DNA from: Eledone cirrhosa
Lineage: Eukaryota
Direction: 5' to 3'
Assembly (NCBI GenBank): GCA_964016885.1
Contig: OZ024741.1
Span: 344,038,001 to 344,102,000 of the forward strand
Length of the DNA stretch: 64,000 nt
Below are positions 3,100-64,000 of the stretch, one piece after another. The notes under the pieces were generated by a model that had not been told where the DNA came from, did not search any database, and saw nothing but the letters and a program-made list of their open reading frames with translations. The position numbers and the translations under genes were made by a program. Each line of letters starts with the position of its first letter. Position 1 is the first letter of the stretch.

Positions 3100-5810
3100 A
3101 TGTTTCTTTATTAGCCACAGGGGCACAAAAGAAGGAGACAAATACAAAGGGGGAAGTTTACATACAATAAAAACGTGTAAAATACTATCACAAATGCAAT
3201 TTAAAAATCAATCGATTTTCCCCAATAGAGGGAGACATTACATATGGGTAACACCCCCCACCCCCACCCCCCGAAAAAATGTGCAACCCTCATCTCCAGG
3301 AGTACAGGCTGATATAGAGAGAAAGCCCATTCACTCGGGCCATTCTCGCCACTTTCACCCACCTTTCATAAAACTTGCTGGGTACAGTACCTCACTCTCC
3401 ATCCTGATTATTTGAAGAAAAGAATCAGTTGTTGGCCAGAGAGAAAGGTGTCTGACCTCAGCTCTTTTAACCTCGTCCAGCATACAACCTCTCTCGCCAT
3501 AGATATCACACAAAGGAAAACCGCCTCTCCTTCGTTTTTGAAGGAGGGTGGCGGTTTGATCATGACAATGTACTCGGTGGTCAACCGGATTGGTCCCACC
3601 CGCGACAATAGTCGTTCTACATAGCCCCACAGGTCGGTAACGCCCAGGAAGTGTACGAATGCGTGCGCGACTGTTTCTTCGTCTCGCACGCATCTCGGAC
3701 AGATCGTTTTCGAAGGGTCCCTGCCCGGGCGCCCGTGTCTGTAGAGCTTGTCTCGAACTGGTAGAGATCCTCGGTAGCACTGCCAGGCCAGGTACTTTTG
3801 GAAGTTGTCCATCGGTCTCGGGTGGAAGGTCCTACCGAACAGACTGGCCAGTTCGTCCTCCTCTACGGCTAGAGTTTCTCCGAACGCGTCGTCGCACTTG
3901 CTGCGGATCAACCCTCTATAGAATTACGAAGTGGAGTCTCCACTGATCGCCGGGTCCGCCTGCCAGAGGGCTGTGACGACCTGAGCACATTCGATGTGCC
4001 AGTCGCCCATTTTTCTCGGTCTTTGCTTGACCCAGGACTGCAGCTCGGTCAGCGAGACGAGTCGTGGGAAGGCTCGCCTCACGAACGGAACCCACACCGG
4101 TTGTCCGGTGAGGAATACGTGGAGGTACTGCAGCCTGAGCGCGTGTTGTGCATCGTCAGCCACGGCATCCCCAGCCCTCCGTTGGAAGGGTGTTGGCAGC
4201 AGATGGATCTTCTCACCAAAGGAGCCCGCTTCTTCCAAAGAAATTGGAAGAGCGCGCGCTCCATTTTGGTGAGCGTTTTGGCTGGACAAGGTACGACGGT
4301 CAAGCGGTAGTAGATGACGGACGCTATAGAAGTCTTCACCACCTCCGCTCGACCTTTCAAGGACAGTTTGCACTCGGCCCACTTCTTGGTGAGTGCAAAC
4401 ACCTTGGCCGTCACTTCGTTCCAGTTCTTCTCCACCTGGAAGTCTGGACCAAACCAGACCCCGAGTAGCTTCACCGGTCCTTCCGCCCAGCGTCCGACGA
4501 CGCCATCGGAAGGTATCGGTTTGCCTCTCCACAATCCGAGTTGCAAACCAATGAACTTGTCCCGGTTCAGCTTCGCTCCTGTGAACCTTTCGTATTCCTT
4601 CAGTAAGTAGCCGACTTCCTCGATTTGCGAGGTGCTCGAAACCATTACTGTCACGTCGTCGGCGTAGGCCGACTCCGCTTTCCGCAGTCCCGGTTCCAGA
4701 GGGATGCCCTGCAATAGCTCCAACTTCCGTAGTAGTGGCTCGAGAGTCAGTACGTACAGAAGGGAGGAGAGAGGGCATCCCTGTCGGATGGATCGCATGA
4801 TATGGAACGGCTCCGATAGGTAGCCGTTCACCTTGACCCTTGAGCAGATATTGCTGCTGTGCATTGCAGCGAGCGATCCAGCCCCTGAACACGGGTCCGA
4901 AGCTTGCCGCCTCGAGCACCGCATCCAGGTAACGATGGTCAACCCTATCGAAAGCCTTAGACTGATCCAAGTTGATCAGGGCCCCACCCTACCCTCTCTA
5001 CGATGTATTGCATGAGGTGGAGGTTGTCTTGTATGGAACTGATCAGGATTGCGCATGTCTGCGCTTTTCCCACCAGGTTTTCGACGACAAGCGCCAGCCT
5101 CTTTGCCAACACCTTGGCCACAATCTGTAACTGTGTTTAGCAGAGTTATGGGCCTGAAATTGCCTGTGTCATCCCCCTTATTCTCGTTGTTCCTGACTAG
5201 CGTGACTAAGCCATTGGTCACACAATTGGGAATTCTCCCGTTCTGCTGCCAGTTGCAGTAGACCGCTTCCAGGAGAGCAGAGAACAAGTCCGGCATTGCT
5301 ACATAAAATTCGTAGGGTAGACACACGAGACCTGGAGATTTGTTTTGCAGCATTGGCTCAGCGTGTCTCCTATCTCAGCAGCCGAAATCGACCTTTTACA
5401 GAACTTCGCCTCGTTCTCCGAGAGTCGCGGCAGGCCGTCGAGGTATGGACCGAAATCCATAGCCCCTCTCGGCGCGCCGCCCTGCTCGAACAGTTGAGCA
5501 AAGTGCCGCTGAAAGGCCGTGAACATCTGCTTCGGCTCACGTATCACGCGTGCGTCTTGGTCCTTCAAAGACCGAATCGTGGACATGTTGCCACTTTTCG
5601 CCTCCATCACTCGAGCCCAGCTAACAGCTTTGGCTCCCTCGTTACCCAGAGCACGTATTTTGCTTCTGACAACGCAGCCCTCGTGCTTTGCGTTGAAGAA
5701 CTGGTCCAAGGCCGTTCTCGTCGCTAGCACGCTGGCTACGTTGCCACTTCTAATTGCCTCTTCTACTTTATCTACCAGTTCCTTCTCGGTCCTATTTCTA
5801 TCTAACGTAG
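3100..5810 (-). mobile_element. 5'-truncated, frameshifted Tx1-like (L1 clade) non-LTR retrotransposon, ORF2 remnant
   Basis: Collinear minus-strand ORF pieces: NKSPG..LPYEFY and NFRPITLLNT (4976-5353); DQSKAFDRVDH (3924-4970 start); IRQGCPLSSLLY and AYADDV (4079-4942); CPRC..ETVAHAF zinc-knuckle remnant (3408-3911). Much more GC-rich than the flanks. AATAAA on the minus strand at ~3107-3112. No endonuclease domain seen. Confidence 0.9.
4079..4942 (-). pseudogene. Reverse transcriptase core fragment of the Tx1-like LINE
   Basis: QGCPLS and YADD motifs, then LLGVWFG and LSLKGR; frameshifted relative to neighbouring pieces. Confidence 0.9.
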
Positions 5811-6084
5811 GTAGTTGGCTCGTTAGTATTAGGAGTTATAAGAGATTAATTTGATTGCTTATAATTTAAGCTGTTATGTCCATCCAGTTATTTTGATGTG
5901 ACCGTTATCTAAACTAATGTAGCGGTTCTCTTTGGTTCTGTATTTTATCTTTTTTTTATTTTAGCTTTCTATTTTATGCCGTAGTATTTCAATGATGGCA
6001 ATTTTTCCTTCTCAAGTTTAAAGGTAAAACCTATCAAGATATCAGCAATGGGTTAATTCTAGTGTAATCCTAGTTTCTGATTCA

Positions 6085-9544: not shown

Positions 9545-11121
9545 TTACAAAACTTCCTTATAGACTATATTTTGGGTTTTCTCGCGAGCTGCAAAGGCAA
9601 ATAGGTTATGTTGGCTCCCCACTCGAGAGCAGCCAACATATAGTTGACCATGGGAGAAGCACGGTTCTTCTAAATTAAGCCCTACGACCGTCAGCGTCTG
9701 ACCCTGTGATTTGTTAATCGACATGGCGAAGCTGAGTCGGAGAGGGAATTGCAGCCTTCTGAATGTGAAAGGAATGTCTTTACCGGATGGAATGAGAGGT
9801 ATCCTTGTTATGAAGACCGTATCCCCCTTACCACATAATGTAAGTATTGTTGCCTCAATAACATGAGGCTTTGCCTTTTGCATGACCAGACGCGTGCAGT
9901 TGGAAAGCCTTCGGGGTTCCAAATTTCTGAAGAGCATGACAGGAACACCTTTCTTAAGTTGCAGTAAGTGTGGTGGCAATCCGGGAGGGTCTAGAGAGTT
10001 AAGAAATTCTGTGGGGGTAATTAACAACTTCGTCCGGATCAGCCATAGAGTCAAGGGACTTGTAGACGTGCAGGTTTCCAGACAAGCACAGCATGAGCTG
10101 TTCATTGATGCTTCCAACTATGTAGTTTTTCGAAGCCAATATTGCGCGTTCACACAACCACTATTGATTTGTGTAGTTCTCCTCAAGATTAGGAAAAACA
10201 GACGTCCGTAACTCAGCAATTGACTTAACGCATCTGAAAATCCCCGTGAGGTCCGCTGTACCATCTCCGTCGAGTGGGACTTTACCATCTCCCAACAACA
10301 AAATGGCAGCAGCAAAACCCGCTGATGTCTCATCACCTTGTAGCTGTGCTCTTATGTTTGTTGTAAGCGTCAGCTTTCTTACATAACGCCAAAGTGAGGA
10401 GGCCTGAAGGCATGCACCAACCCCATCAGCCTGCGTACCTTTTGGGATTACAGGCAGAGTCTGTCGGATGTCCCCAGATAACAGGAAAGTGACACCTCCC
10501 ATTGGTTTTTGACAGTCCCTGATGTCTCTGAGTGATCTGTCTAATGCCTCGAAAGCCGCCCTGTGGGCCATTATGCATTCGTCCCAAACAATTAGTAGGC
10601 AGTGCTTTTCCGGAAGACTTGCTGATTTTGCACGTGGGTGTCTCAGATGATGCCATGTTGAGAGGAAGACTGAAGGCAGAATGGTCCGTCCTGTCACCAT
10701 GCAGCAAAGTTGCTACAATGCCGGAAGGAGCCACGGCCAATGCGATGTTTCCGTGTTGTCTCACTGCAGCGAGTAAAAGTTTGATTACAAATGTTTTGCC
10801 CGTGCCTCCAGGTGCGTCCAGGAAGAATATACCCCCTCCCCGATTACGAATGGAATGAACGACAATGTTGTAGGCTTGTTTTTGATCCAGTAGAAGGTTT
10901 GGTTCATTCTCTTCAACATACCTCTTGAGTTCGTCGACATCATATGATGTTTCACGTATAATGTCGTTGGGAATGTCAGATGTCGCATCTCGAAGTGTTT
11001 GCGGATGCCCATATTTCTCCAAGACATCTCCGCCCATTGAAGCCACTCTGTCTTCAATATCGATCAGAGCTCTGTTATATATAGCGTCTGAAAAGCCGAC
11101 ATCTAAGTTTTGAGTTTGCAA
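9545..11121 (-). pseudogene. PIF1-family SF1 helicase domain of Helitron RepHel (fragmented)
   Basis: Walker A DAPGGTGKT, Walker B IVWDE, GDIRQTLPV, FAMSINKSQGQT and HGQLYVGCSRV across ORFs 10426-11121, 10161-10700 and 9545-10117. Confidence 0.95.
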
Positions 11122-11357
11122 TTAAGCGAGACGCCTATATTCGTCTGCGAAATCTTCTTTAAACTTTTGCCATAAAGAGTAAGGATCGCTCAATTCACAG
11201 ACGTGCAAGAGGATAGTAAAAAGTGCTCTTAGACTACAGGATGATTGTGAGATGGCAGCTTCCGTCAAGGTTGCATCCCATTGTGCGTCATCTTCTCAAA
11301 GTCCACGCCTCAAGCAGGCTTCCCTGTACGTTCCGCAGGCGTATCCATCGACGATTC

Positions 11358-13288
11358 TCAGATGAGTGAAGCTAGTCGCAGGTAGAAGCATTGGTGTTGA
11401 GTAGGCTGGACCGTATAAACTCGCCCAAGGCAATTTTCGAATTTGATGCCTGGATGTCCAACCACCTCTTGTCCTACCTTCCTTCGTAGCCATTCTCTCC
11501 GGTTCCATGTATAGTAAGACGGTATTTCAGAATACAGCTGAGTTCGAGCGAAGTCGTCGAGTTGACAAAGTTTGAAAAAAGCGGTGAGTGTAGTTTCCTT
11601 TGGTGAGATCGCTGGCTGAGCAGCTGTTGGATCATTGAAATACACCCGTTGGCCGTTTTCAAGGTGAACGGCAAGTTGTTTAATGACGGGGTGTCGTTGG
11701 TGCAGTGGGAAGCTAAAAACGCGCCAAAAGGCTTCATCGCTGCTAATGTATCGGCCTGCTTGGTAGTCAGATACCTCGTCTCTACTGTTTTCATGACGAA
11801 GACCAAAGACGGCAGCATCCGATCCCTTGTTTACGTACTTACAAACGTATTTAATTGATTTTACTGAGTTGCAAAATTCGACGTTTATATGGGTGTTGAA
11901 TGTTTTCAAGAGGAGGGGGAAATATGGCACTATTCAGCTGTTGTCGATTTCGTGTTCACCAACTTTTGCTGTGAACCCACTGTCTGCAGGTCTCCTGCGC
12001 CTATACAACGGATATCCGTCACCACCAGTCTGTGTTTCCTGTAAAAACGGCCTGGGATATCGTTTTGTACACTTTCCGTCGTGTATGCACGGGGACTTCA
12101 TATTGAGTCCATGTCCGCAAGGACCATGGACCATTTTGATGTGACTATAGAGAAGAGCTCCTTGTCAATCGACAGATCAGGTAGTTCGGCAGAAATGAAT
12201 TTGTCGATGTAGTTTGAACTGATTTTTGTAACCAACCAAATCAAGATATGGCCATGCGGCAGCCCTCGTTTCTGCCATTCAACCGTGTACATGTCGCATC
12301 TGACAGGCCCCAAAACCTGTCCTTTCTTTAATAAATCCATTAATTTGGATACTTTCAGGCGAAACACTCTTGCTATGAGATTGTGCCTGTGTCTTGGCGC
12401 TTGACTGTGGAACAGTTCGTTTGTAATCTCCTTCCACTTGGGATTGCATGTAAACGTTATGAAAAGGTCGGGGCGCCCATAATGTCGTACGTAAGTCATG
12501 GCGTCCTGAGTCCTCTCGTGCATGTATCGGGGTTCCCCTGTGAACGTTGAAGGCAAAATACACACTTGCCCTAAATTGTCTGGGGATACGTCGTTGTTAA
12601 TTCCATCGCGTAGATGAATGTCGCATTCAGATCGAAGTTTCTTTTGATTTAATTTAATGAACCATAATCTCTCGGACTCCATTTTAACGGCCATATTAAC
12701 AGCAAATTGTTGGAAAATGTCCCGAGAACGGTGTAGATGGTTGAATGAATTGTCCCTTACCATAAATTGGAAAGCGTAGAAATCCATGCAGGTGACAGTT
12801 TTCCTAAGATGTGCCTCACCATTGCCTGCCGAATGTTGAGGAATGCCGAAATGGTATCCGTCCTCGCCGTTGACAAATAGCAATGGATAGTGGAGTGCAT
12901 CGTTGGACCTGTGTGTCTCATTGATACGCTGTAATGTGATGTCTCGGTGCTTTAGAATGATATCTCTCTTGTTGTGCTGTTCACCACAAATAACCGCAGC
13001 AATCTCATTACATGCTGGTGCCTTGAACCGACCAGCGTGTTCTCCAGATGGCCTTCGGTCAGCATGTATGACCACACTAAAGTTTTGGTCGGTGGCTGTT
13101 TCCAAAGCATACTTGAAACTGCGAACATAGCTGTTTTTGTCGTGAAGCATTTCTTGAAGTTTTATTATGGTTCCAATGTTAGTTTCGGACGAAATAGAGT
13201 TTCGCACCCTGCCTGTCCTGATAGTTTCCAACGAAGTATAACTGAAGAAATTGAGGATCCTTTTCTGCCATAGGCTGAGTAGAACCAA
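11358..13288 (-). pseudogene. HUH/Y2 Rep endonuclease domain of Helitron RepHel (fragmented)
   Basis: PDLFITFTCNPKW, VEWQKRGLPHGHIL (HUH), MVHGPCG and KYVCKYVNKG (two catalytic Tyr). Confidence 0.95.
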
Positions 13289-13990
13289 TCAAGTGGTAGA
13301 TCTGCCCCAAGACCTTAAAAGTTGGCATGAACCCACGTTCCGGGGAAAGCTTTGCTCCGAAGGATGTCATCTGAAACGCGGAATTGTAGCGGTGGATATT
13401 ACGCAGAAACTTCGATGACTCCTCCGTCGTGTCTGTCAAAAGGAGTTGCAATGTCTCTGGAGGGTCTAGAATAGGAGGTAGTCTAACTTTACCATTTGAA
13501 CAGCACATTCCATGTCTCTTACCTGGCCACTTTGTCATACGACAAAACTGACAATTTGAATATCTGCATGGACGGCGTAGTCGGAGGAGGGGTCGTAGTT
13601 AAAAGCCTTCAACAACCATCGTGAATTGCAAGTCCTAGAAATGCCATGTAACGATGATCGCCTCTGTTCACTTTGCAGAAGTCGGCCACGTCGTTGCTCT
13701 ATGGTTTCAGTATTTCGTGCAGCAGCAATGGCAGTGGCGTCCCTGCTTCGTCGAACGGCACGTCGTCCATCATCATTTCGTGTGCGAGCAGCAGCAGTCG
13801 CGGCAGCACTTTTGTTCCGTCGAAGTTCACGCCGACTGTCATCCTCCTCCGCCCTTGCAGCTGCCGTCTGCACAACATTCTGTGAGAGCCTGATCGCAGT
13901 TGCACTTAAATCTTCGGTGAGACGCCTTCGCTTAGACCTACTTGCATCATTAGATAATCGACCAATGAGAGTTCTTTTCTTGGAGGGCAT
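13179..13990 (-). pseudogene. N-terminal part of Helitron RepHel: 23-aa repeats plus zinc-finger remnant
   Basis: MPSKKR start; AAAR-initiated 23-aa repeats ending ETIEQRRGRL; MCCSNGKVRLP and YNSAFQMTSFG in the next frame. Confidence 0.85.
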
Positions 13991-14274
13991 TGTTTTTAGA
14001 AAATTAACCAGGGAGAACGATAAATAGTGGACAAATAACGTTTACGTAAGCAAAAAAACACGGATATAAATTGTGAAAAAATGTGATAAATCTATGTGGT
14101 CTGAGAAAGTGGGTGTTTTGCAAGATTTTGTGTACCAGTCAAATTTCAGGTTTTAAGTTAGGGGCAACGAAAAGTAAGAACTAACCATTGAAAGGATAGA
14201 GGCAAAAATGGCTGAAAAATCACAGCATGATAAACTGGAACCTTATGACCATAAACACATTAACTAAACCTCCT

Positions 14275-15105: not shown

Positions 15106-15141
15106 TCTTAACGTTTCGGACGCTAGTCCTTCATCAGAAGA
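15106..15141 (-). ncRNA. Minimal type I hammerhead ribozyme (family A repeat 15017-15200)
   Basis: Minus strand reads UCUU-CUGAUGA-A-GGAC(UAGC)GUCC-GAAA-C-GUU-AAGA: stem I UCUU/AAGA, palindromic ACGU stem III, GUU site. Confidence 0.75.
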
Positions 15142-35167: not shown

Positions 35168-35543
35168 GTTTTGGAAACCTCAACAATGAAGATGAGTAAA
35201 TATCCAGGTAACGGAATCAGGTGGTAATGAGAGAGAGATGTAAGAGGAAGCGTAGAAAGAGACATAGAGAGCGTAAAGGAACGTAGGAAAAGTGACAAAA
35301 ATAATAACACGAGAGAGAGTTACCTTGGAAGTGATTTAATAGTCCCTATATTTCGGATTTCGCATCCATCACTGGGAGTTTTCTGAGGGGAAAAAGGTTG
35401 CGTCGGAGAAGGGCAACACGTGGCCTACGCTGTTTATCGTGTGCGTTTATCGCGCAGTTCATTAACACTAGAGAGGTTCTTGTGCCTCTGACACAAGTAA
35501 GTGTATATATGTATATACTTCTATATATGTATATATATATATA

Positions 35544-36226
35544 TAATAATTCTAAGGACATGATTTATGATATATTGCTCTGATTATTTAATTTATTAAT
35601 TCTTCATTGAGCCACATCGTGACCGGTTGCCACATATATATCTGTGACTTTATGTATATGTAAATCTTTATATTTAATAATCTCCCGTTGGGTTGAGATG
35701 CAATTGGGTGATATTGGGCTGCGTTTTCTAGCAACCAGCCTACTCGCCGTAAACAACTAATCACATTCTTTCTAACTTGACCACTGCCATGTCACGATTC
35801 TTAGACATTTTTTAAATCTATTTCTGGCGCGTTCCCTTTGGAAAATTAACTGTCCTATTGAGTTTGTCTCCTGATGAGTTCGATACTCGAGATTTATCCT
35901 TAATGATAGGATATCTCAAAATACGAACGAAACCATGGTAGAGATGTAATTACGGTATGTACACGTTTCTTCTAACTTTAAATTTATACCTAATTGTGTA
36001 TGGTTGACGGTATATTTAGTCAGTTTCTACATGCTGTTGAAATGTTGGGTAAATACTCTATTGTGGTCAACCGCGAAGAGGCCGCTTTCGGTTATTTATC
36101 AAATATTTCTTCATAGGAGCCTTTATTCTTATAGCCTGGTCTAATTGATTTTTTATGTGGTTAATTATGCTAATTGGGAGAGGAAATGGTATATATTTTA
36201 TCTAATAATTCTAAGGACATGATTTA

Positions 36227-36234
<8 letters not shown>
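35544..36234 (+). mobile_element. ~690-bp non-coding element with terminal direct repeats and one hammerhead (retrozyme-like or Penelope pLTR-like)
   Basis: TAATAATTCTAAGGACATGATTTATGATATAT at 35544 and 36203; homologous along its length to 43455-44163(-); flanked by (TA)n. Confidence 0.8.
35866..35945 (+). ncRNA. Type I hammerhead ribozyme with extended stem II
   Basis: GUCUC-CUGAUGA-GUUCG[hairpin insert]CGAAC-GAAA-CCAUG-GUA-GAGAU: intact core, palindromic ACCAUGGU stem III, GUA site. Confidence 0.85.
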
Positions 36235-36298
<64 letters not shown>

Positions 36299-37319
36299 TA
36301 TTTTGTGACAGGATCTACTACTTATCTACAAATTGTGTCTCGTTTTAGCAACTCCCAAAACACTTCACCTTCACCGCTGCCTTTCCGATTTCCATATCTT
36401 TCAATGCGTTCCTAATTTTGCCACCTGGTTGTGTTTTATCTTCATCAACAGCATTCATTTCTGATTTCCTTATATTTGTTTTGCTTTAGTATAAATCTTG
36501 ATAAAAATGTTCTACTCTATAAAAGATCTATCATTTAATGTTTCTATCATTTATCGCTTACCCTTCAGTAGATTTCAAAGCAATAATTTGTGATTTCCCT
36601 AAAACAAGATTTCTGTTAGTTCTCTTAATGTTTGTTTCTTTGTTTTTGTATTTGATCTGCATTGCTTGCTCAATTTTGCGCATGTTTACTTTTTGTATCT
36701 CTTCTTTTATCCTATTTTATGTTTTTACTAGTTTATGCATATTCCACCTAACTACTACTTTCCCTTTTCTCACCAGGCACTTCTCTTCGTCAGCATTTTT
36801 CTGGAGCAAATTTACTGAGGCAAATTTTCTTCTATTGGGTCGTCAAGTATGAAATTTGTAGAGTTGTAGTTTTTTTTTCTAGAAATTTCTACAAATTTCA
36901 TACTTGAAGACATAATAAAATGTGTTTCTTTCCTACTAATACTATGAAGACAGAATATCTGATAATGTCAACCATCAATTCACACTATCATTTTACCTTT
37001 TTTTAATTTCCAGTTCACTATTTCAAACTTCAAATGTACTTTGTATTTCAATTTCATATTCATATTTTTTATTGATACTATTTACAAGTGGTTTCATTTT
37101 ATTGACCAATATCATATTAACTTTACCGTTTTCCTTTTACCAGACGATGTTCGCATCCAGTATTAAGCTGTGAAAGAATTGCCTCGATTTTCACTAGTCT
37201 TAGATTATCCCTAATAAATCTCACTCTTTGCTTTTATTTCTCCCTTTGAGCTCTTCTTTGCCCAATTTACGTTCAATTTCTTCGTTAAAAATCTGTTCAT
37301 AAATTTAAATCGAATGAAA

Positions 37320-41725: not shown

Positions 41726-41885
41726 AAAGTGGTTACACAACAGTTAGTTCACCATACCGAGAACAATTGTTTCATCTTAGCGGATTCTCAGTTGGTAATG
41801 GGCATTACGTCCATTACGAGCTGAGGATCCGCTAAGGTGAAACAATTGTTCTCGCTATGGTGAACTAACTGTTATGTAACCACTT
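41726..41885. repeat. Inverted duplication containing back-to-back hammerhead motifs
   Basis: AAGTGGTTACA..GAGAACAATTGTTTCATCTTAGCGGATTCTCAG mirrors CTGAGGATCCGCTAAGGTGAAACAATTGTTCTC..TGTAACCACTT. Confidence 0.88.
41817..41854 (+). ncRNA. Minimal type I hammerhead motif
   Basis: CGAG-CUGAGGA-UCC(GCUAA)GGU-GAAA-CAAUU-GUU-CUCG: palindromic ACAAUUGU stem III, weak stem II. Confidence 0.7.
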
Positions 41886-42642: not shown

Positions 42643-42722
42643 TTGGCATGTGAACAGAACTGCAGACACTAATGTTTCTGGGTATCACCCTTCATCAGTA
42701 CAGCTCACTGTTCACCTGCCAA
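42643..42722 (-). ncRNA. Full-length type I hammerhead ribozyme
   Basis: Minus strand reads UUGGCA-G-GUGAACAG-UG-AGCUGUA-CUGAUGA-A-GGGU(GAU)ACCC-A-GAAA-CA(UUAG)U-GUC-UGCAGUU-CUGUUCAC-A-UGCCAA: intact core, GUC site, ~21-bp stem I with a bulge. Confidence 0.88.
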
Positions 42723-42870: not shown

Positions 42871-43053
42871 CAGTCAGCTTCATTATTAATATTCAAAAAC
42901 ACTCAGATTACATTTATTGTATTCAGCCATGTAGAGCGAAATTGTTTTTATATATATGCATATATATATATATGTTTATATATATATATGTACATATATA
43001 TGTATATAAATATCTACATATATATGTACATATATGTATACATATATAGATAC

Positions 43054-43197
<144 letters not shown>

Positions 43198-43216
43198 TCA
43201 TGGATATGTATATATT

Positions 43217-43316
<100 letters not shown>

Positions 43317-43366
43317 TGGAAATGGTGTATATATATTATCAAATGATTCTATGGACATACTTCATA

Positions 43367-43454
<88 letters not shown>

Positions 43455-43460
<6 letters not shown>

Positions 43461-44163
43461 CTATAAAGTATGTCCATAGAATTATTTGATAATATATATA
43501 TACCATTTCCTCTCCCAATTAACATAATCAACCGCACAAAAAAACAATTAAACCAGGCTATAAGATTAAAAGGCACCTATGAAGAAATAGTAGATAAATA
43601 AACGACAGCAATCTATTCGCGATCAACCGCTATAGGATATTTACCCAACATTTCAATAGCACGTGGAAATCGATTAAATATACCGTCAACCATACACAAT
43701 TAGGTATAAAATTAAAGTTAGAAGAAAAAATGCATATACACATACCAGGATTACGTTTCTATCCTTAGGGTTTCGTTCGCTTTCGGAAATATCCTATCAA
43801 GGATAAATTCTCGAGCTTCGAACTCATCAGGAAACAAACTCACTTGGACAAAGATATTTCTTAAATGATCCCCGCAGAAACGAATTCAGAATGGGTAAGA
43901 ACTGTGACGTGGCAGTGGTCAAGTCAGAAAGGATATGATTGGTGGCTTACGGCGAGTGGGCTGGGTGCTAGAAAGCGCAGCCCAATATTGCCCAAATTGC
44001 ATCTCAACCTTAAGGGAGATTATCAAATATAAAGATTTACATATACACAAACTAGACAAAGTCACAGATATATATGTTTTGGCAACAATTCACGATGTGG
44101 CTCAATGATGAATTAATAAATTAAATAATTAGACCAATATACTATAAAGTATGTCAATAGAAT
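43455..44163 (-). mobile_element. Second, diverged copy of the ~690-bp hammerhead element
   Basis: Reverse-complement homology to 35544-36234. It has its own terminal direct repeat AATATACTATAAAGTATGTC(C/A)ATAGAAT at 43455 and 44136, and an inverted copy of its 3' end at 43318-43370. Confidence 0.8.
43755..43835 (-). ncRNA. Type I hammerhead, homolog of 35866-35945
   Basis: Minus strand reads GUUUC-CUGAUGA-GUUCG[...]CGAAC-GAAA-CCCUAAGG-AUA-GAAAC: compensatory changes in stem I and one stem III mismatch. Confidence 0.8.
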
Positions 44164-44401
44164 CATATATACATATATATATATCAATGATATTAATAAA
44201 TGGAAACTATATTTATAAAACCATATTTATACTATTATATATAGTTTAAGGGTACCAAAACTTCGGTACGCTCTCATCAGATAAAATACAAAGTTTCATA
44301 AATATTGACATATCCAGGAATGAGACCGTTAAGTGTGAAAGCAACGATTCTTTGCTTAAACCTTGATCAGTTATTTTAATAAATATATATATATATATAT
44401 A

Positions 44402-47527: not shown

Positions 47528-50400
47528 TCAACATTAACATCATCGTTTTTACGTCCACTTTTCCATGCTTGTATGGGTTGGACGAGTCCTTCTCAGCACG
47601 GCCTCTTTCAACACATCGCGATCCCCTTTGTCATCGCCTCTGTGAGTCTCAGTGATTGAATGTCAGCTCTTCCCAGATCTGTCTTGGTGTACCTCTACCA
47701 TCTCTTCCTTCCACTGGCATTTCCTGGTACTTGTCCACCCAACAATCATTGTCCATGCGCATCACATGTCCAAACCAATACAGTCTTCTCTCTTGCGCAC
47801 TACCTCGGATTCCTCTTAAACTCAGCCTCTTCTTCAACTCGTCCAAGCCCTATCTCTCTCTCACACTTACATTGCACATCTAACGGAGCATCGTCGCTTT
47901 ATTTCTCTCCAATCTAGGCACGTCCTCTGCAGTCATAACCTATCTTTCACTACAATGCAGCATCGGAATTCGCACACAGGCGTCGTACAGTTTTTGTACG
48001 TAAGGAGAAATATTTTGTGCTCAACAGCGGTAGTACCTCTCTGAACTTTTTCTCTCCTGTCCTTATTCTAGCTATTTCGTTGCCTAGAGAACAGAACCTA
48101 TCAACTACGTCTATGGGTCCTACCTGTAATTGGAATCACTAGTTATCCTCCTCTCGGTTACCTCTGTGCACCTTCTACAAATATTGTCTTCCTTTCCTGT
48201 TTAGCCTACTCGTTATTCCACTACATCTCTCGTGTACCCAAAATTTACATTGTGTACAACGTATGGTGTTTATGCCTACTTCCTTTCTTCATGATAGTAT
48301 CAGGGTCCTATCTTCTCTCCTACTCACTAACACTTTAGTTTTGGCTAAGTTTACTCTCAGCCATTTTCTAAATTCGGTTTCCATAGTCGAAATTTATTTA
48401 GTAGGCCTTTCATAGATTCCGCTATAAGGACCACATCGTCTGCATAGAGAATTTCCCATGGACAGCCAGTCTTAAACTCCTCTGCTATAGCCTGGAGGAC
48501 TATAATGAATAGTAGAGGGATCAGAACCGAACCTTGATGATCTCCTTCTTGTACCTTGAATTCCTCATTAAACTCATTTCCTACTCTCCTTTTGCTGACA
48601 TTGTACACGACTTGCACTGTCCCCACCAACCATTTTTCTACTCCAAATTTTCTTAAAGACCACCAAATAAAATATCGGGATACTCTGTCAAGCGCTTTTT
48701 ATAAGTCGATGAAATCTAGGTATAGTGGCTTATTTATTTTATTGTTTTTTTTATGTTGTCTCACTAGAAGGAGGGCGACTGTAGTTCTTTTCCCAGGTTT
48801 GAAACCAAACTACATCTCGTCTAATTTGACTCTTTCTGTAATTAGCTGTGCTATAACTCTTTCCATCACTTTCATAACTTGGTCCATTAGCTCTTTAATC
48901 CTCTATAGCTGCTCCTCTCAAGGGCATCTCCTTTGCTGTTGTAGCAATTTACAATTGTACTGCTGTACCAGTCATTGAGTGTGACACCATCTTGTATGAC
49001 CAGATTGACTATGTGGGTTATTAGCTTGAATCCTGTTTCTCCCAATGCTTTTAGCATTTCAGCAACTATCTCTAGTGATTTTGCTGCTTTACCATTTTTC
49101 TGTCATTAACCATATAACTATCAACTTCAATGGCTGGCCCTTCTATTGGATGGGTTGGGGGTAGTTTCACTTTCTCTCTTTCATTCTCTACATTCGTCAA
49201 TCTCTCATAGTAGGATTTCCAGGCCTGTCTTTTGAGCATTAGGGGTGTTAAATGCACTGGTGTCATTTCTAACACACTTTTCCCCAACATTCATGATTAA
49301 CACTGACACACTGCCTTGCAATGCAGAACACTTCGCGTCATTGACCCTCACGTCTCAGGACGTTGGCAGACTTTTTTTCTTCAGCCTCTCTCCTAGCTGT
49401 GTATACTTGTCGCCTAGCTTCTGTCTTAGCCACCTGGTACCGCTCTCTACTGCCCCCATCTTTCCAGTCTTAGCAAGCCTGTGTCTTGGCTTTGATGACT
49501 CTATCCACTGAGCTGTTCCGCTACCAGGTCACCCTCTGACTAGCTGGTGCTCTACTCCAGTCACAAGTCTCGTCAGTAGTTTGCAAAAGATTGTCGCATA
49601 AGAATTTCCAGTTGTGCTCTACGTCATAGCTCGTCACTTCTCTCATCAAATTCATCCCGTAGGGTCGTTCTGAACTTATATTTGAGCGAGAGGCCCTTTT
49701 ACTTGCTTATTTTTATGTGCTTATTTTTATGTGCTTATTTTTATGTCACTAATAACTACCTTATGCTGAGTGGCGCATTCCTCTCGAGAGAATGCATTAG
49801 TATTTATTACAGTCCGTTTGTCTGGTTGTCTAACAAGTAAATAGTCAATATGGCTTTTGTGTTCATTTGATCGATATGAGATTAGGTGGCTGGCTGATTG
49901 GCTGGCTGGTTGCCTGAAACTTGTGTTGCAAATGGTTAGTTCATTTGCGTCACAGAATTCCAGGACTCTGAAACCCTCTTCGTTCCTTGAGCCAAAGCCA
50001 TAGCCGCCGTGAAATTCACTGAATCCGTCCTGGTACTTGCCCACATATCCATTGAAGTCTCCTGCCAGGATGATGATGTCACATTTATCGGTACCTGAAG
50101 TCGTCTGTAAAAGTTCTTCATAGAACCCTTCATTTTGTTCTTTACTCGGTCCTGTCTGTAGAGCATAGATAAATGTAATTGTCACCATTCTATTTCATGC
50201 AGTTATTTTAAGCTTGATAATTATGTCGCTTAATCTAACTACTTCTATCACTTTATCTATCCATTTCACAGCCAGTAGTAAACCTATACACCACTTAGCT
50301 CATCATACCTATGCTGTTTGCCTGTCAGTAGGCACTCCTCCATTTCAACTCTTGTACACGGCAAATGCCCACTTCTCTCCTCTCCCTTCAGGGTGCTAAC
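47524..50400 (-). mobile_element. Decayed RTE-clade LINE (APE endonuclease plus RT)
   Basis: APE motifs IILAGDFNGYVG, SHIDYLLVR and QHKVVISD (49727-50188); RT motifs HQGSVLIPLLF and ILYADDVVL (48357-48629); C-terminal RRLYWFGHVMRM..GRGTPRQIW (47649-47846); short (GAT)-type tail. Confidence 0.9.
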
Positions 50401-56731: not shown

Positions 56732-57259
56732 GTTTGCGAGATTTTTTATATGAAATCGTGTGTCGAAACAAATATTGTTATACTTTGGGAGGGTCATATT
56801 GTTGTAATAATATTGCCATGAATAATAACAGAACACACTCACTGTTTGGTTGGTTTTCGCTTCTGTATCTTTTATATCAGTTAATTTATTCGGTCCTCAA
56901 TGTTTACCATTGACTGACCAACGGTCAAAAATACAGATATAATATAGATATATACACATATATATAGTCTAACAAAGTTCTTTCGTTGCACATCTGCAAC
57001 ATTGTCAGTGGTGCTATTATGTTCCTCCTGTTGTATTGTATATCTACGCCATCTTTATTTAATCTGTTTATTTATTTATTTATTTTTGTCTTCTTCTCTG
57101 CGCATGCGTTTGCGTGTGTGTATAGTGTTTGATGTGTGTTCGTGTTTGGGTGACAGTGTTTTTGTTATTGTATTCTATCTTAGTTTACTAGTGTGTGCTT
57201 ATATGTGTTTGTTGTTATTGTTCTCGTGTGTATATTTATTTATTTATTTATATTTCCCT

Positions 57260-58250
57260 TAAGTCAGTATTGTTTGTTTGGGTGTTGTTGTTATTCCATT
57301 CATTTTTTCTGTTTAGCTTTGGCCTTCTAAGTTCTATTTCACTGGCCTCTCTGATTTGCCTATCTGCTAGGTCATTTCTATGTTTAGATATTATTTTAAT
57401 TTCTATGTTGTCTATCTTACCGTCGTGTTGTTGTCTGGCATGTTCGTATAGTACTGAACCGTTGTTTCATCCTTTTACTTCCCCCCAGTGTTGGTCTATC
57501 CTTTCACCTATGCTACGAGCTGTCTCGCCTATGTACGTTGTTGTCATGTTTCTGCAACTACCCTCTGTATATCTTATGCTATAGACTACGTTTCTAGTTT
57601 TACAGTTTATCCGGGGTTTACTTTACATATAATACATTTCCTATTAGTATAGTGGGTTTTCTTAAAAGGGTATGTTTTGCTGATCAGGGATTTTATGTAG
57701 TTCCTGGCTTTTCTACCACTTTAATCTTTAAGTGGGTCTTTCTCAGGGCCTTTCTACACTGGTTAGCTAATATCCCTCCAGGGGTAGCGTACACAAACAT
57801 GACACTCTGGTATCTCTGGTTGTCGTACCATGAGGTGGCTTTCCCTATCTCATGTCTTGTCCTATCTAAGCTATTCCATGATTAAAATACAATAGTAAAT
57901 ATAGTGTAATGTAAATGTTAAACAGTTAATCCCTTGTTTTCCCTATGCCCACTGTTTTTATGTATGTCAATGGTTTCCATGTTTTACTCTGCTTATAGTG
58001 TTATTATGTTTTTGTTTTCTATTTCTTTCTGATACATTGGATACTTTACTTTGTTCGTCACTGTTCCATATTTTCTCCTCCTATATCGGCTGTTTCATTG
58101 GTGTTTCTGTATCTTCGAGTGCTCTGGTGATGTTCCTGTAAAATATTTATGTTATTTGATTTGAATACTTTTCGTTTCTGGAGAAAATGTTTGCACTTTT
58201 TAAAGCTTCGTATTAGGCAGATCTCTTCTATGCTTTTTATAATATTTTGT
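57260..58250 (-). mobile_element. Penelope-like element remnant with GIY-YIG endonuclease
   Basis: Minus frame 57610 to 57482 reads INCKTRNVVYSIRYTEGSCRNMTTTYIGETARSIGERIDQHWG, followed by SVLYEHARQQHDG..DRQIREASEI. The upstream boundary is uncertain. Confidence 0.8.
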
Positions 58251-63520: not shown

Positions 63521-63897
63521 TTTATTTATCACATTCATATGAATTAATATAATTTTATCCCTGTAAGTATACCTATAAATTAATTTAATTTCCTGTTATG
63601 AATCTAGAGTATTTTTAGTTTAAATAAGATTGGTATTTCTCACTAATACCCTTATCCCAAAATTTTATTTTCCTCGGTTCTTAACAACATTCTTTAATAA
63701 CATCAAATTTTTATTTATCACATTCATATGAATTAATATAACTTTATCCCTGTAAGTATACCTATCAATTAATTTAATTCCTTGTTATGTATCTAGATTC
63801 CTTGTGGTTTAAATAAGATTGGTATTTCTCACTAATACCCTTACCCCAAAATTTTATTTTCCTTCGTTTTTAACAACATTCTTTAATAATCAAATTT
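63521..63897. repeat. 189-bp tandem duplication
   Basis: TTTATTTATCACATTCATATGAATT.. starts at 63521 and again at 63710; the copies are mildly diverged. Confidence 0.9.
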
Positions 63898-64000
63898 TCA
63901 TGTACCCTTCACTATCTTCTTGACTTGACCTCATTTCATCCCCATTGTAGTCTTTTCATTCAAAGCATAAGTCTGCATTCCTCCACTCCTAGATTTAATT

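What the first reader, a model, noticed from the sequence alone, without database searches (positions are those of the whole stretch)
35544..36234. Retrozyme-like ~690-bp element: copy-specific terminal repeats, internal hammerhead, stem covariation
Seen: two diverged copies (here and 43455-44163, -). Each has a ~30-bp terminal direct repeat that matches within a copy better than between copies, yet the repeats are homologous between copies. They are therefore element sequence, not target duplications. Stem I covaries (GUCUC/GAGAU vs GUUUC/GAAAC), while the core and the GUUCG/CGAAC stem are invariant and the stem II insert stays a hairpin. Inference: reverse transcription slightly more than once around a ~660-nt circular or tandem RNA processed by the ribozyme, with insertion into (TA)n.
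Basis: partly seen in the sequence, partly recalled or inferred. Interest (0 to 1): 0.8.

Follow-up and report, generated by a model that had tools for sequence, protein, structure and literature searches.

The report
Ribozyme-bearing Penelope-type mobile repeat
This is one of well over a thousand copies of a roughly 660-base non-coding repeat that carries a hammerhead-ribozyme fold and sits in TA microsatellites with the end pattern of Penelope-like retrotransposons, so it is likely an animal 'retrozyme' copied by their enzymes, probably from a circular RNA, which is a known kind of element with an unusually clear footprint.

Summary
The two copies are real, but they are short cases of a large family: 1,851 exact hits of one 24-mer, at least four subfamilies. 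Copies are head-to-tail ~660-690-bp units with ragged 5' ends and two fixed 3' ends 101 bp apart, followed by (TA)n. The '30-bp terminal repeat' is just one unit plus 32 bp, and it is subfamily-specific, not copy-specific. In 28 of 30 classifiable two-armed insertions each arm uses a different end. Coding Neptune-type Penelope elements in this genome show the same pattern and share the TA tracts. A ~245-nt rod follows it. cDNAs run through the cleavage site (65 of 69 arms), so the template was continuous there: a circle (likely) or an uncleaved multimer. No RNA data; no coding partner with shared sequence found. Verdict: a non-LTR retrozyme, i.e. a non-autonomous Penelope-like element; known kind, new variant. 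The scan saw a similar footprint on another genome's tRNA-bearing repeat (e1-7810660).

The parts
35544..36234 (+). Copy A: one 659-bp unit plus 32 bp of the next; subfamily A
35544..35575 (+). 5' copy of the 32-bp overlap; the 5' junction lies at the unit's own TA-like tract
36203..36234 (+). 3' copy of the overlap, ending at fixed 3' end E1 (unit position ~32), inferred RT start site 1
35576..35676 (+). 101-bp 'tail' segment; its end (unit position ~133) is fixed 3' end E2 in other copies, inferred RT start site 2
35860..35863 (+). Pseudoknot 5' strand (GAGU), pairs with 35885-35888
35866..35945 (+). Type I hammerhead fold: stem I 35866-35870/35941-35945, core 35871-35877, stem II base 35878-35882/35924-35928 with a long extension, GAAA 35929-35932, palindromic stem III 35932-35939, predicted cut after 35940
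35885..35888 (+). Pseudoknot 3' strand (ACUC) in the internal loop of stem II
35954..36197 (+). Predicted long imperfect rod (~245 nt), conserved across subfamilies, ending ~35 nt before E1
36229..36294 (.). (TA)n target tract at the 3' end of copy A
35502..35545 (.). TA-rich tract at the 5' junction of copy A
43455..44163 (-). Copy B: one ~681-bp unit plus ~28 bp; subfamily B; ends at E1
43755..43835 (-). Hammerhead of copy B (core 43830-43824, predicted cut after 43760); A at 43762 breaks a stem III pair, so this copy is probably impaired
43318..43372 (+). 55-bp 5'-truncated B-type fragment ending at E1, facing copy B across the same TA tract
42949..43465 (.). TA tract that holds the 3' ends of copy B and of the 55-bp fragment

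Best explanation
The element is a high-copy, non-coding ~660-690-bp tandem unit with a covarying type I hammerhead fold, inserted into (TA)n with two fixed 3' ends and frequent inverted arms; it is likely a non-LTR retrozyme mobilised in trans by a Neptune-type Penelope reverse transcriptase/GIY-YIG endonuclease, probably from a ribozyme-made circular RNA. Shown: the copy anatomy, the covariation, selection on the ribozyme core, read-through of the cleavage site, and the same end pattern in coding Neptune-type elements of this genome. Inferred: a tandem copy is transcribed; hammerheads cut out the monomer (the palindromic stem III would favour cutting in multimers); a host ligase closes it; the Penelope protein nicks (TA)n and starts reverse transcription internally at one of two UAUAU-containing sites 101 nt apart. 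When both target strands are used, one arm starts at each site, giving back-to-back arms. Synthesis stops at variable points, often joining at a TA-like tract, which gives the 'one unit + 32 bp' copies in this window.
For: Family size: 1,851 exact 24-mer hits, 0 for the reversed control; 4,788, 4,573, 2,274 and 1,637 first-look candidates for four subfamily queries. Ends: (TA)5 follows 60 of 64 E1 ends, 42 of 50 E2 ends, 5 of 13 other ends, against 15% background. Of 41 two-armed insertions 28 are E1/E2, 2 E2/E2, 0 E1/E1 and 11 have an unclassed end. Coding partners: RT + GIY-YIG frames up to 938 aa with a CX4CxxC linker; their two-armed copies end early on one arm and late on the other (L186, L193; 7 of 7 two-armed L181-family and 2 of 3 L193-family copies), and 15 of 53 such 3' ends lie within 120 nt of a retrozyme arm end. 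Ribozyme: 94% of cells paired, 83 two-sided changes, 0 of 500 shuffles; 0 of 11 core positions versus 268 of 597 other positions carry a common variant, Fisher p=0.002. Template continuity: 69 of 108 arms reach the cleavage junction, 4 stop within 15 nt. Same template read repeatedly: private shared variants 2.6 versus 0.17 per kb (A) and 2.3 versus 0.23 per kb (B) within versus between loci, for within-locus pairs at least 2% diverged. Precedent: PMC7229834, PMC11167929, PMC8557442, bioRxiv 10.64898/2026.07.22.740005.
Against: No RNA, cleavage or circle was observed. No sequence link to a coding element: none in 50 GIY-YIG loci by blastn, HMM or covariance model, out of 10,596 candidates, so the partner is inferred from footprint only. 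Shared private variants could also come from a tandem source locus, later local duplication (L056, L146, L206 units differ by 1% or less) or conversion between arms. Only 3 of 114 arms in the unbiased sample cross two junctions. Both arms of L002 share a change at the stem I closing pair and both arms of L143 an A9 change. In PMC11167929 the hammerhead was dispensable and uncut RNA was the main substrate in vitro; 8 of 9 Xenopus retrozyme dimers did not cleave (bioRxiv 10.64898/2026.07.22.740005).
Confidence: 0.55

Rival explanations
1. Same element and same Penelope machinery, but the template is an uncleaved linear read-through transcript of a tandem genomic source; the ribozyme acts elsewhere in the cycle (for example trimming transcript ends) and any circle is a by-product.
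For: Read-through of the cleavage site fits equally well. Uncut RNA was the dominant substrate for the anole Poseidon protein (PMC11167929). Most arms are under one unit and only 3 of 114 cross two junctions. Two insertions share ribozyme-damaging changes on both arms.
Against: The core is under purifying selection across subfamilies 70-80% identical. Repeated 5' truncation should erode source arrays unless length is regenerated, yet insertions of three to four old, diverged units exist (L140, L141). Animal retrozymes accumulate largely as circles (PMC7229834).
Confidence: 0.3
2. The unit is the solo pseudo-LTR of a still unsampled coding Penelope element, and the copies are its truncated ends.
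For: Fixed 3' ends, tail, inverted arms and TA targets are those of coding elements. Only 50 loci of 10,596 GIY-YIG candidates were examined. Xenopus retrozymes resemble pLTRs (bioRxiv 10.64898/2026.07.22.740005).
Against: What lies 5' of a unit is another unit, an inverted arm or flank, not a coding frame. The longest stop-free frame in five natural multimers is 74 codons and Penelope proteins find no remnant in them (best E 0.88). An ancient pLTR origin stays possible.
Confidence: 0.07
3. The template is the cleaved linear monomer and the RT jumps from its 5' end to a 3' end to make tandem copies.
For: One copy (L024) has a 3-nt duplication at the cleavage site.
Against: No pile-up of 5' ends at the site (4 of 69, about the background of 4-5 per 33 nt); in the junction types printed for 156 copies (the 60 commonest) the cut site is clean apart from rare single events.
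Confidence: 0.05

Closest known systems
Non-LTR (animal) retrozymes (Cervera & de la Pena 2020, PMC7229834; Li, Clavereau & Pollet preprint 10.64898/2026.07.22.740005)
   Same: Non-coding tandem units, one type I hammerhead per unit, low GC, monomers to short multimers, co-occurrence with Penelope-like elements.
   Different: Unit 657-693 bp, above the 150-450 bp of the 2020 paper though inside the 51-972 bp of the preprint; long stem II with a Watson-Crick pseudoknot instead of the usual loop-loop contact; ~245-nt rod; fixed ends, tail and inverted arms are documented here; no pLTR homologue found.
EN+ Penelope-like elements, Neptune clade (Craig et al. 2021, PMC8557442)
   Same: 5' truncation, partial tandems, inverted arm, tail at one end only, microsatellite targets; coding members with a CX4CxxC linker here use the same TA tracts.
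   Different: No ORF; the tail is ~101 bp versus the 30-40 bp described (about 45 and 70 bp in two coding families here).
Poseidon from Anolis (PAc; Frangieh et al. 2024, PMC11167929)
   Same: Two internal RT start sites that define the tail; both target strands are nicked and extended; AT-rich targets.
   Different: PAc start sites are not homologous to the target and showed no strand preference in vitro; here both ends lie at short TATA-like tracts matching (TA)n and two-armed insertions use one end per arm.
Non-autonomous Chlamys elements such as MRC1 (PMC8557442)
   Same: Non-autonomous Penelope-type elements with multicopy head-to-tail insertions.
   Different: Those generally share 3' sequence with autonomous families, and most Chlamys lack canonical hammerheads.
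Pseudoknotted hammerheads (Perreault et al. 2011, PMC3088659) and U3-A8 core variants (Cervera & de la Pena 2014, PMC4209133)
   Same: A short helix joins stems I and II; the oldest subfamily here shows U3 with A8 in 9 of 11 copies.
   Different: Here the helix joins the strand 5' of stem I to an internal loop of a much longer stem II; no Rfam hammerhead model scores it.
Plant LTR retrozymes
   Same: Size range and predicted self-paired RNA (from PMC7229834 and the preprint's introduction).
   Different: Those have type III hammerheads in true LTRs, PBS, PPT and 4-bp TSDs; here the hammerhead is type I and internal, and the end overlap has no fixed length.

Membership tests
Non-LTR retrozyme | Head-to-tail repeat units, each with a type I hammerhead | tested here: met
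   Multimers L091, L140, L141, L056; intact core plus stem III in 77 of 109 loci, one copy per locus
Non-LTR retrozyme | No coding capacity | tested here: met
   Longest stop-free frame 74 codons; no Penelope protein remnant
Non-LTR retrozyme | No true LTRs | tested here: met
   End overlap varies continuously with 5' truncation; no tRNA gene in 5 loci; PBS and PPT were not searched
Non-LTR retrozyme | Conserved hammerhead structure | tested here: met
Non-LTR retrozyme | Self-cleavage of the transcript | not testable with these tools
   Needs an in vitro assay
Non-LTR retrozyme | Accumulation as linear and circular monomer RNA | not testable with these tools
   No RNA holder listed
Non-LTR retrozyme | Unit size | tested here: inconclusive
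   657-693 bp: outside 150-450 bp (PMC7229834), inside 51-972 bp (preprint)
Non-autonomous Penelope-like element | 5'-truncated partial tandems with inverted arms | tested here: met
   41 two-armed insertions in 75 loci
Non-autonomous Penelope-like element | Two 3' ends (tail at one end) | tested here: met
   28 of 30 classifiable two-armed insertions
Non-autonomous Penelope-like element | Microsatellite targeting shared with a coding element | tested here: met
Non-autonomous Penelope-like element | Sequence similarity to the pLTR of an autonomous family | tested here: inconclusive
   None in 50 loci out of 10,596 candidates
Autonomous Penelope-like element | RT + GIY-YIG ORF | tested here: not met
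Plant-type LTR retrozyme | Type III hammerhead inside long terminal repeats | tested here: not met
   Type I, mid-unit
Rfam hammerhead families | Score at a family's threshold | tested here: not met
   No hit at gathering score in the window, none to a hammerhead model at E<=10 in 35500-36300

The most novel reading that the evidence does not exclude
A genome-wide fossil record of Penelope enzymes copying a ribozyme-made circular RNA: a dimeric Neptune protein nicks both strands of (TA)n and primes one strand at each of two structure-defined sites on the same circle, rolling through the ligated ribozyme junction. This would close the proposed but unshown retrotransposition step of animal retrozymes and explain the Penelope tail and inverted arms in one mechanism.
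Probability: 0.3. Interest if true: 0.75.

Novelty: new variant of a known kind. Interest (0 to 1): 0.45.

Why it matters
That Penelope enzymes move animal retrozymes has been proposed from co-occurrence and sequence likeness (PMC7229834; preprint 10.64898/2026.07.22.740005), and the preprint says the mechanism is open. This family gives the integration footprint itself, beside coding elements with the same footprint, and names testable parts: two start sites, a rod, a pseudoknotted hammerhead that Rfam misses. With the in vitro Penelope assay of PMC11167929 the circle-versus-multimer question becomes a direct experiment. It is not a new class: the element type, the tail, inverted arms and pseudoknotted hammerheads are each in print.

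Tried and rejected
Rfam gave nothing at gathering score and only TA-repeat noise at E<=10. My first hammerhead pattern allowed 35 nt for stem II and missed both copies. Single-sequence folding of the hammerhead did not return the active fold and was weak for copy A (z -1.1; copy B z -2.6); RNAalifold on 62 copies returned only the pseudoknot helix, so stems I-III were counted on a structure I named, where the number of pairs with two-sided changes did not exceed shuffles (426 of 500) though cells and score did. Whole-monomer folding was only z -1.65 and the first 317 nt z -1.5. Rod covariation is mostly one-sided: 5 of 58 pairs two-sided, 59 of 500 shuffles as high. No phage match. Bacterial promoter scan is not applicable. 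No tRNA. Partner search by blastn, tblastn, HMM and covariance model was negative in 50 loci; hits in L159, L191 and L198 are separate copies of the family. Nearest-neighbour test was mixed: the partner unit was closer than every other-locus piece in 16 of 43 tandem and 10 of 44 divergent pairs (these totals include a few pairs of separate insertions), 0 of 4 convergent pairs. Shared G8 changes in L141 are probably parallel CpG decay; the 'unshared' count is inflated by subfamily B misalignment and was not used. Rejected: target-site duplication, true LTRs, copy-specific repeats, satellite-only origin. Literature: searches found no report of fixed ends and one-end-per-arm insertions for a retrozyme; the library lacks most subscription papers, and I saw no supplements, which could hold such data (notably those of PMC7229834, PMC8557442 and the preprint).

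Full report
Observation. Copy A has an exact 32-bp end overlap, copy B about 28 bp at 96%. Both lie in TA tracts. The hammerhead is as described, with the predicted cut after 35940. Rfam does not detect it.

Family. The window lies in a 3.0-Gb genome. Searches with copy A and copy B gave 4,788 and 4,573 first-look candidates, 40 scored each, with full-length copies at 93-97%. One 24-mer has 1,851 exact hits and its reversed control none. Copies near 70-80% identity form further subfamilies, and a distant, older one was found through an HMM hit.

Anatomy. I took 75 loci covering 98 of the first 100 pattern hits, a sample not selected for length. Copies are head-to-tail units with variable 5' ends. 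The 3' ends fall at unit position ~32 (E1) or ~133 (E2) and are followed by (TA)5 in 60 of 64 and 42 of 50 cases, against 15% background. There were 41 back-to-back two-armed insertions: 28 E1/E2, 2 E2/E2, none E1/E1, 11 with an unclassed end; independent choice would give about half mixed. The 49 single arms were 33 E1, 14 E2, 2 other; a few of these have short inverted partners below my score cut-off. Arm lengths run from ~60 nt to over two units; 28 of 114 exceed one unit. The window's two copies join at the TA-like tract ~30 nt before E1, which yields the apparent terminal repeat.

RNA structure. On 62 copies (one per locus, chosen across subfamilies from 109 loci) 94% of cells pair, with 83 two-sided changes and 0 of 500 shuffles as high; slid controls pair 30-53%. 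Stem I has two and stem II two pairs with two-sided changes. RNAalifold found a further helix, GAGY just 5' of stem I with RCUC in the stem II internal loop: 98% paired, 18 two-sided changes. The distant subfamily has GAGG with CCUC or a G-U variant in 7 of 11 matched copies, stem II GCUCG/CGAGC, a longer palindromic stem III and U3 with A8 in 9 of 11, a core covariation reported in PMC4209133 (part 1 of 4 read). Pseudoknots joining stems I and II are common in hammerheads (PMC3088659, passages; PMC10085705, passages). No core position (0 of 11) carries a variant in 10% of loci, against 268 of 597 others (p=0.002). A rod at 35954-36197 folds with z -6.3 in A and -3.5 in B and is 97% paired over 58 pairs in 18 copies, mostly by one-sided changes. 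Copy B itself has a stem III mismatch.

Template. A cleaved linear monomer would limit cDNA to 294 or 395 nt and pile 5' ends at position 398. Instead 69 of 108 arms reach that point and 4 stop within 15 nt, about the background; a handful of 5' calls near 494 are artefacts of the rod's self-complementarity and do not bear on this. Units of one insertion share private variants about 10-15 times more often than units of different loci, while neighbours facing each other across one TA tract are unrelated subfamilies. This fits a monomer read repeatedly, but also a homogeneous tandem source, local duplication (L056, L146, L206) or conversion, and two insertions share ribozyme-damaging changes on both arms. 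No RNA data were available.

Machinery. The genome holds 10,596 GIY-YIG candidates. Of 20 long-frame loci fetched, several carry RT plus C-terminal GIY-YIG frames up to 938 aa or more with a CX4CxxC linker, the Neptune hallmark in PMC8557442 (passages). They end in (TA)n at two sites about 45 or 70 bp apart. In one search, 7 of 7 two-armed copies of one family and 2 of 3 of another used one site per arm, a sample biased to the late end, partner arms were more mixed (3 early, 3 late, 1 other, 1 running on). 15 of 53 Neptune ends were within 120 nt of a retrozyme arm end. No sequence homology between the unit and these pLTRs was found, so the partner clade is inferred from footprint.

Comparison. 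PMC7229834 (parts 2-4 of 6 read) defines non-LTR retrozymes, shows their circles and proposes Penelope mobilisation. The preprint 10.64898/2026.07.22.740005 (parts 1-3 of 5 read) links them to pLTRs, reports units of 51-972 bp and cleavage in 1 of 9 dimers. PMC11167929 (parts 1-2 of 4 read) shows two internal RT start sites that define the tail, use of both strands, and a dispensable hammerhead in vitro. PMC8557442 describes inverted arms, a 30-40-bp tail often at one end, TA bias and non-autonomous head-to-tail elements. The element meets every testable retrozyme feature and the structural features of a non-autonomous Penelope-like element; expression, cleavage and pLTR homology are untested or unresolved.

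Verdict. Real, and well explained as a class (about 0.9 that it is a Penelope-mobilised retrozyme-type repeat); 0.55 for the full model with a circular template. New variant of a known kind; interest 0.45.

Noticed in passing
window 9545-14041 (-): Broken Helitron: Helitron_like_N (E 1e-53), PIF1 and Pif1 2B domains in separate frames.
   Followed up: partly
window 3355-5835 (-): Frameshifted non-LTR retrotransposon with an RVT_1 match.
   Followed up: partly
window 49727-50194 (-): Endonuclease fragment of a non-LTR element, weak Exo_endo_phos_2 match.
   Followed up: partly
window 57248-57881 (-): Short frames with a GIY-YIG-like motif (recognised from recall), possibly a decayed Penelope-like element; no Pfam hit and no tblastn hit from the coding families sampled.
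   Followed up: partly
window 15114-15137 (-), 41821-41842 (+), 42675-42698 (-), 44250-44280 (-): Other hammerhead-like cores; the one at 42675 recurs in L161 and L193, so it belongs to another repeat. The core pattern alone is barely above chance (6 versus 2.6).
   Followed up: no
L191:8068-9600 (+): Four hammerhead-like motifs spaced about 490-510 bp apart: probably a second, unrelated retrozyme family.
   Followed up: no
L186:33, L197:5462, L183:8089, L184:3885: Further repeats with hammerhead-like cores and long stem II.
   Followed up: no
L181, L193, L198 pLTRs: The coding Neptune-type families carry degenerate hammerhead-like folds (UUGAAAA-type cores, palindromic ACCGGU stem III) and share CCAAT-like and GAGCCAC motifs upstream; GAGCCAC also occurs in the retrozyme unit near position 67.
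   Followed up: no
L120:3198-3632: A Neptune 3' end joined to a 5'-truncated retrozyme copy with no TA tract between; nested insertion or template switch.
   Followed up: partly
L279, L270: In the distant subfamily the rod region is replaced by an internal ~140-bp duplication that has expanded further in some copies.
   Followed up: no
window 63521-63898: Two-copy 189-bp tandem repeat, 91% matches.
   Followed up: no
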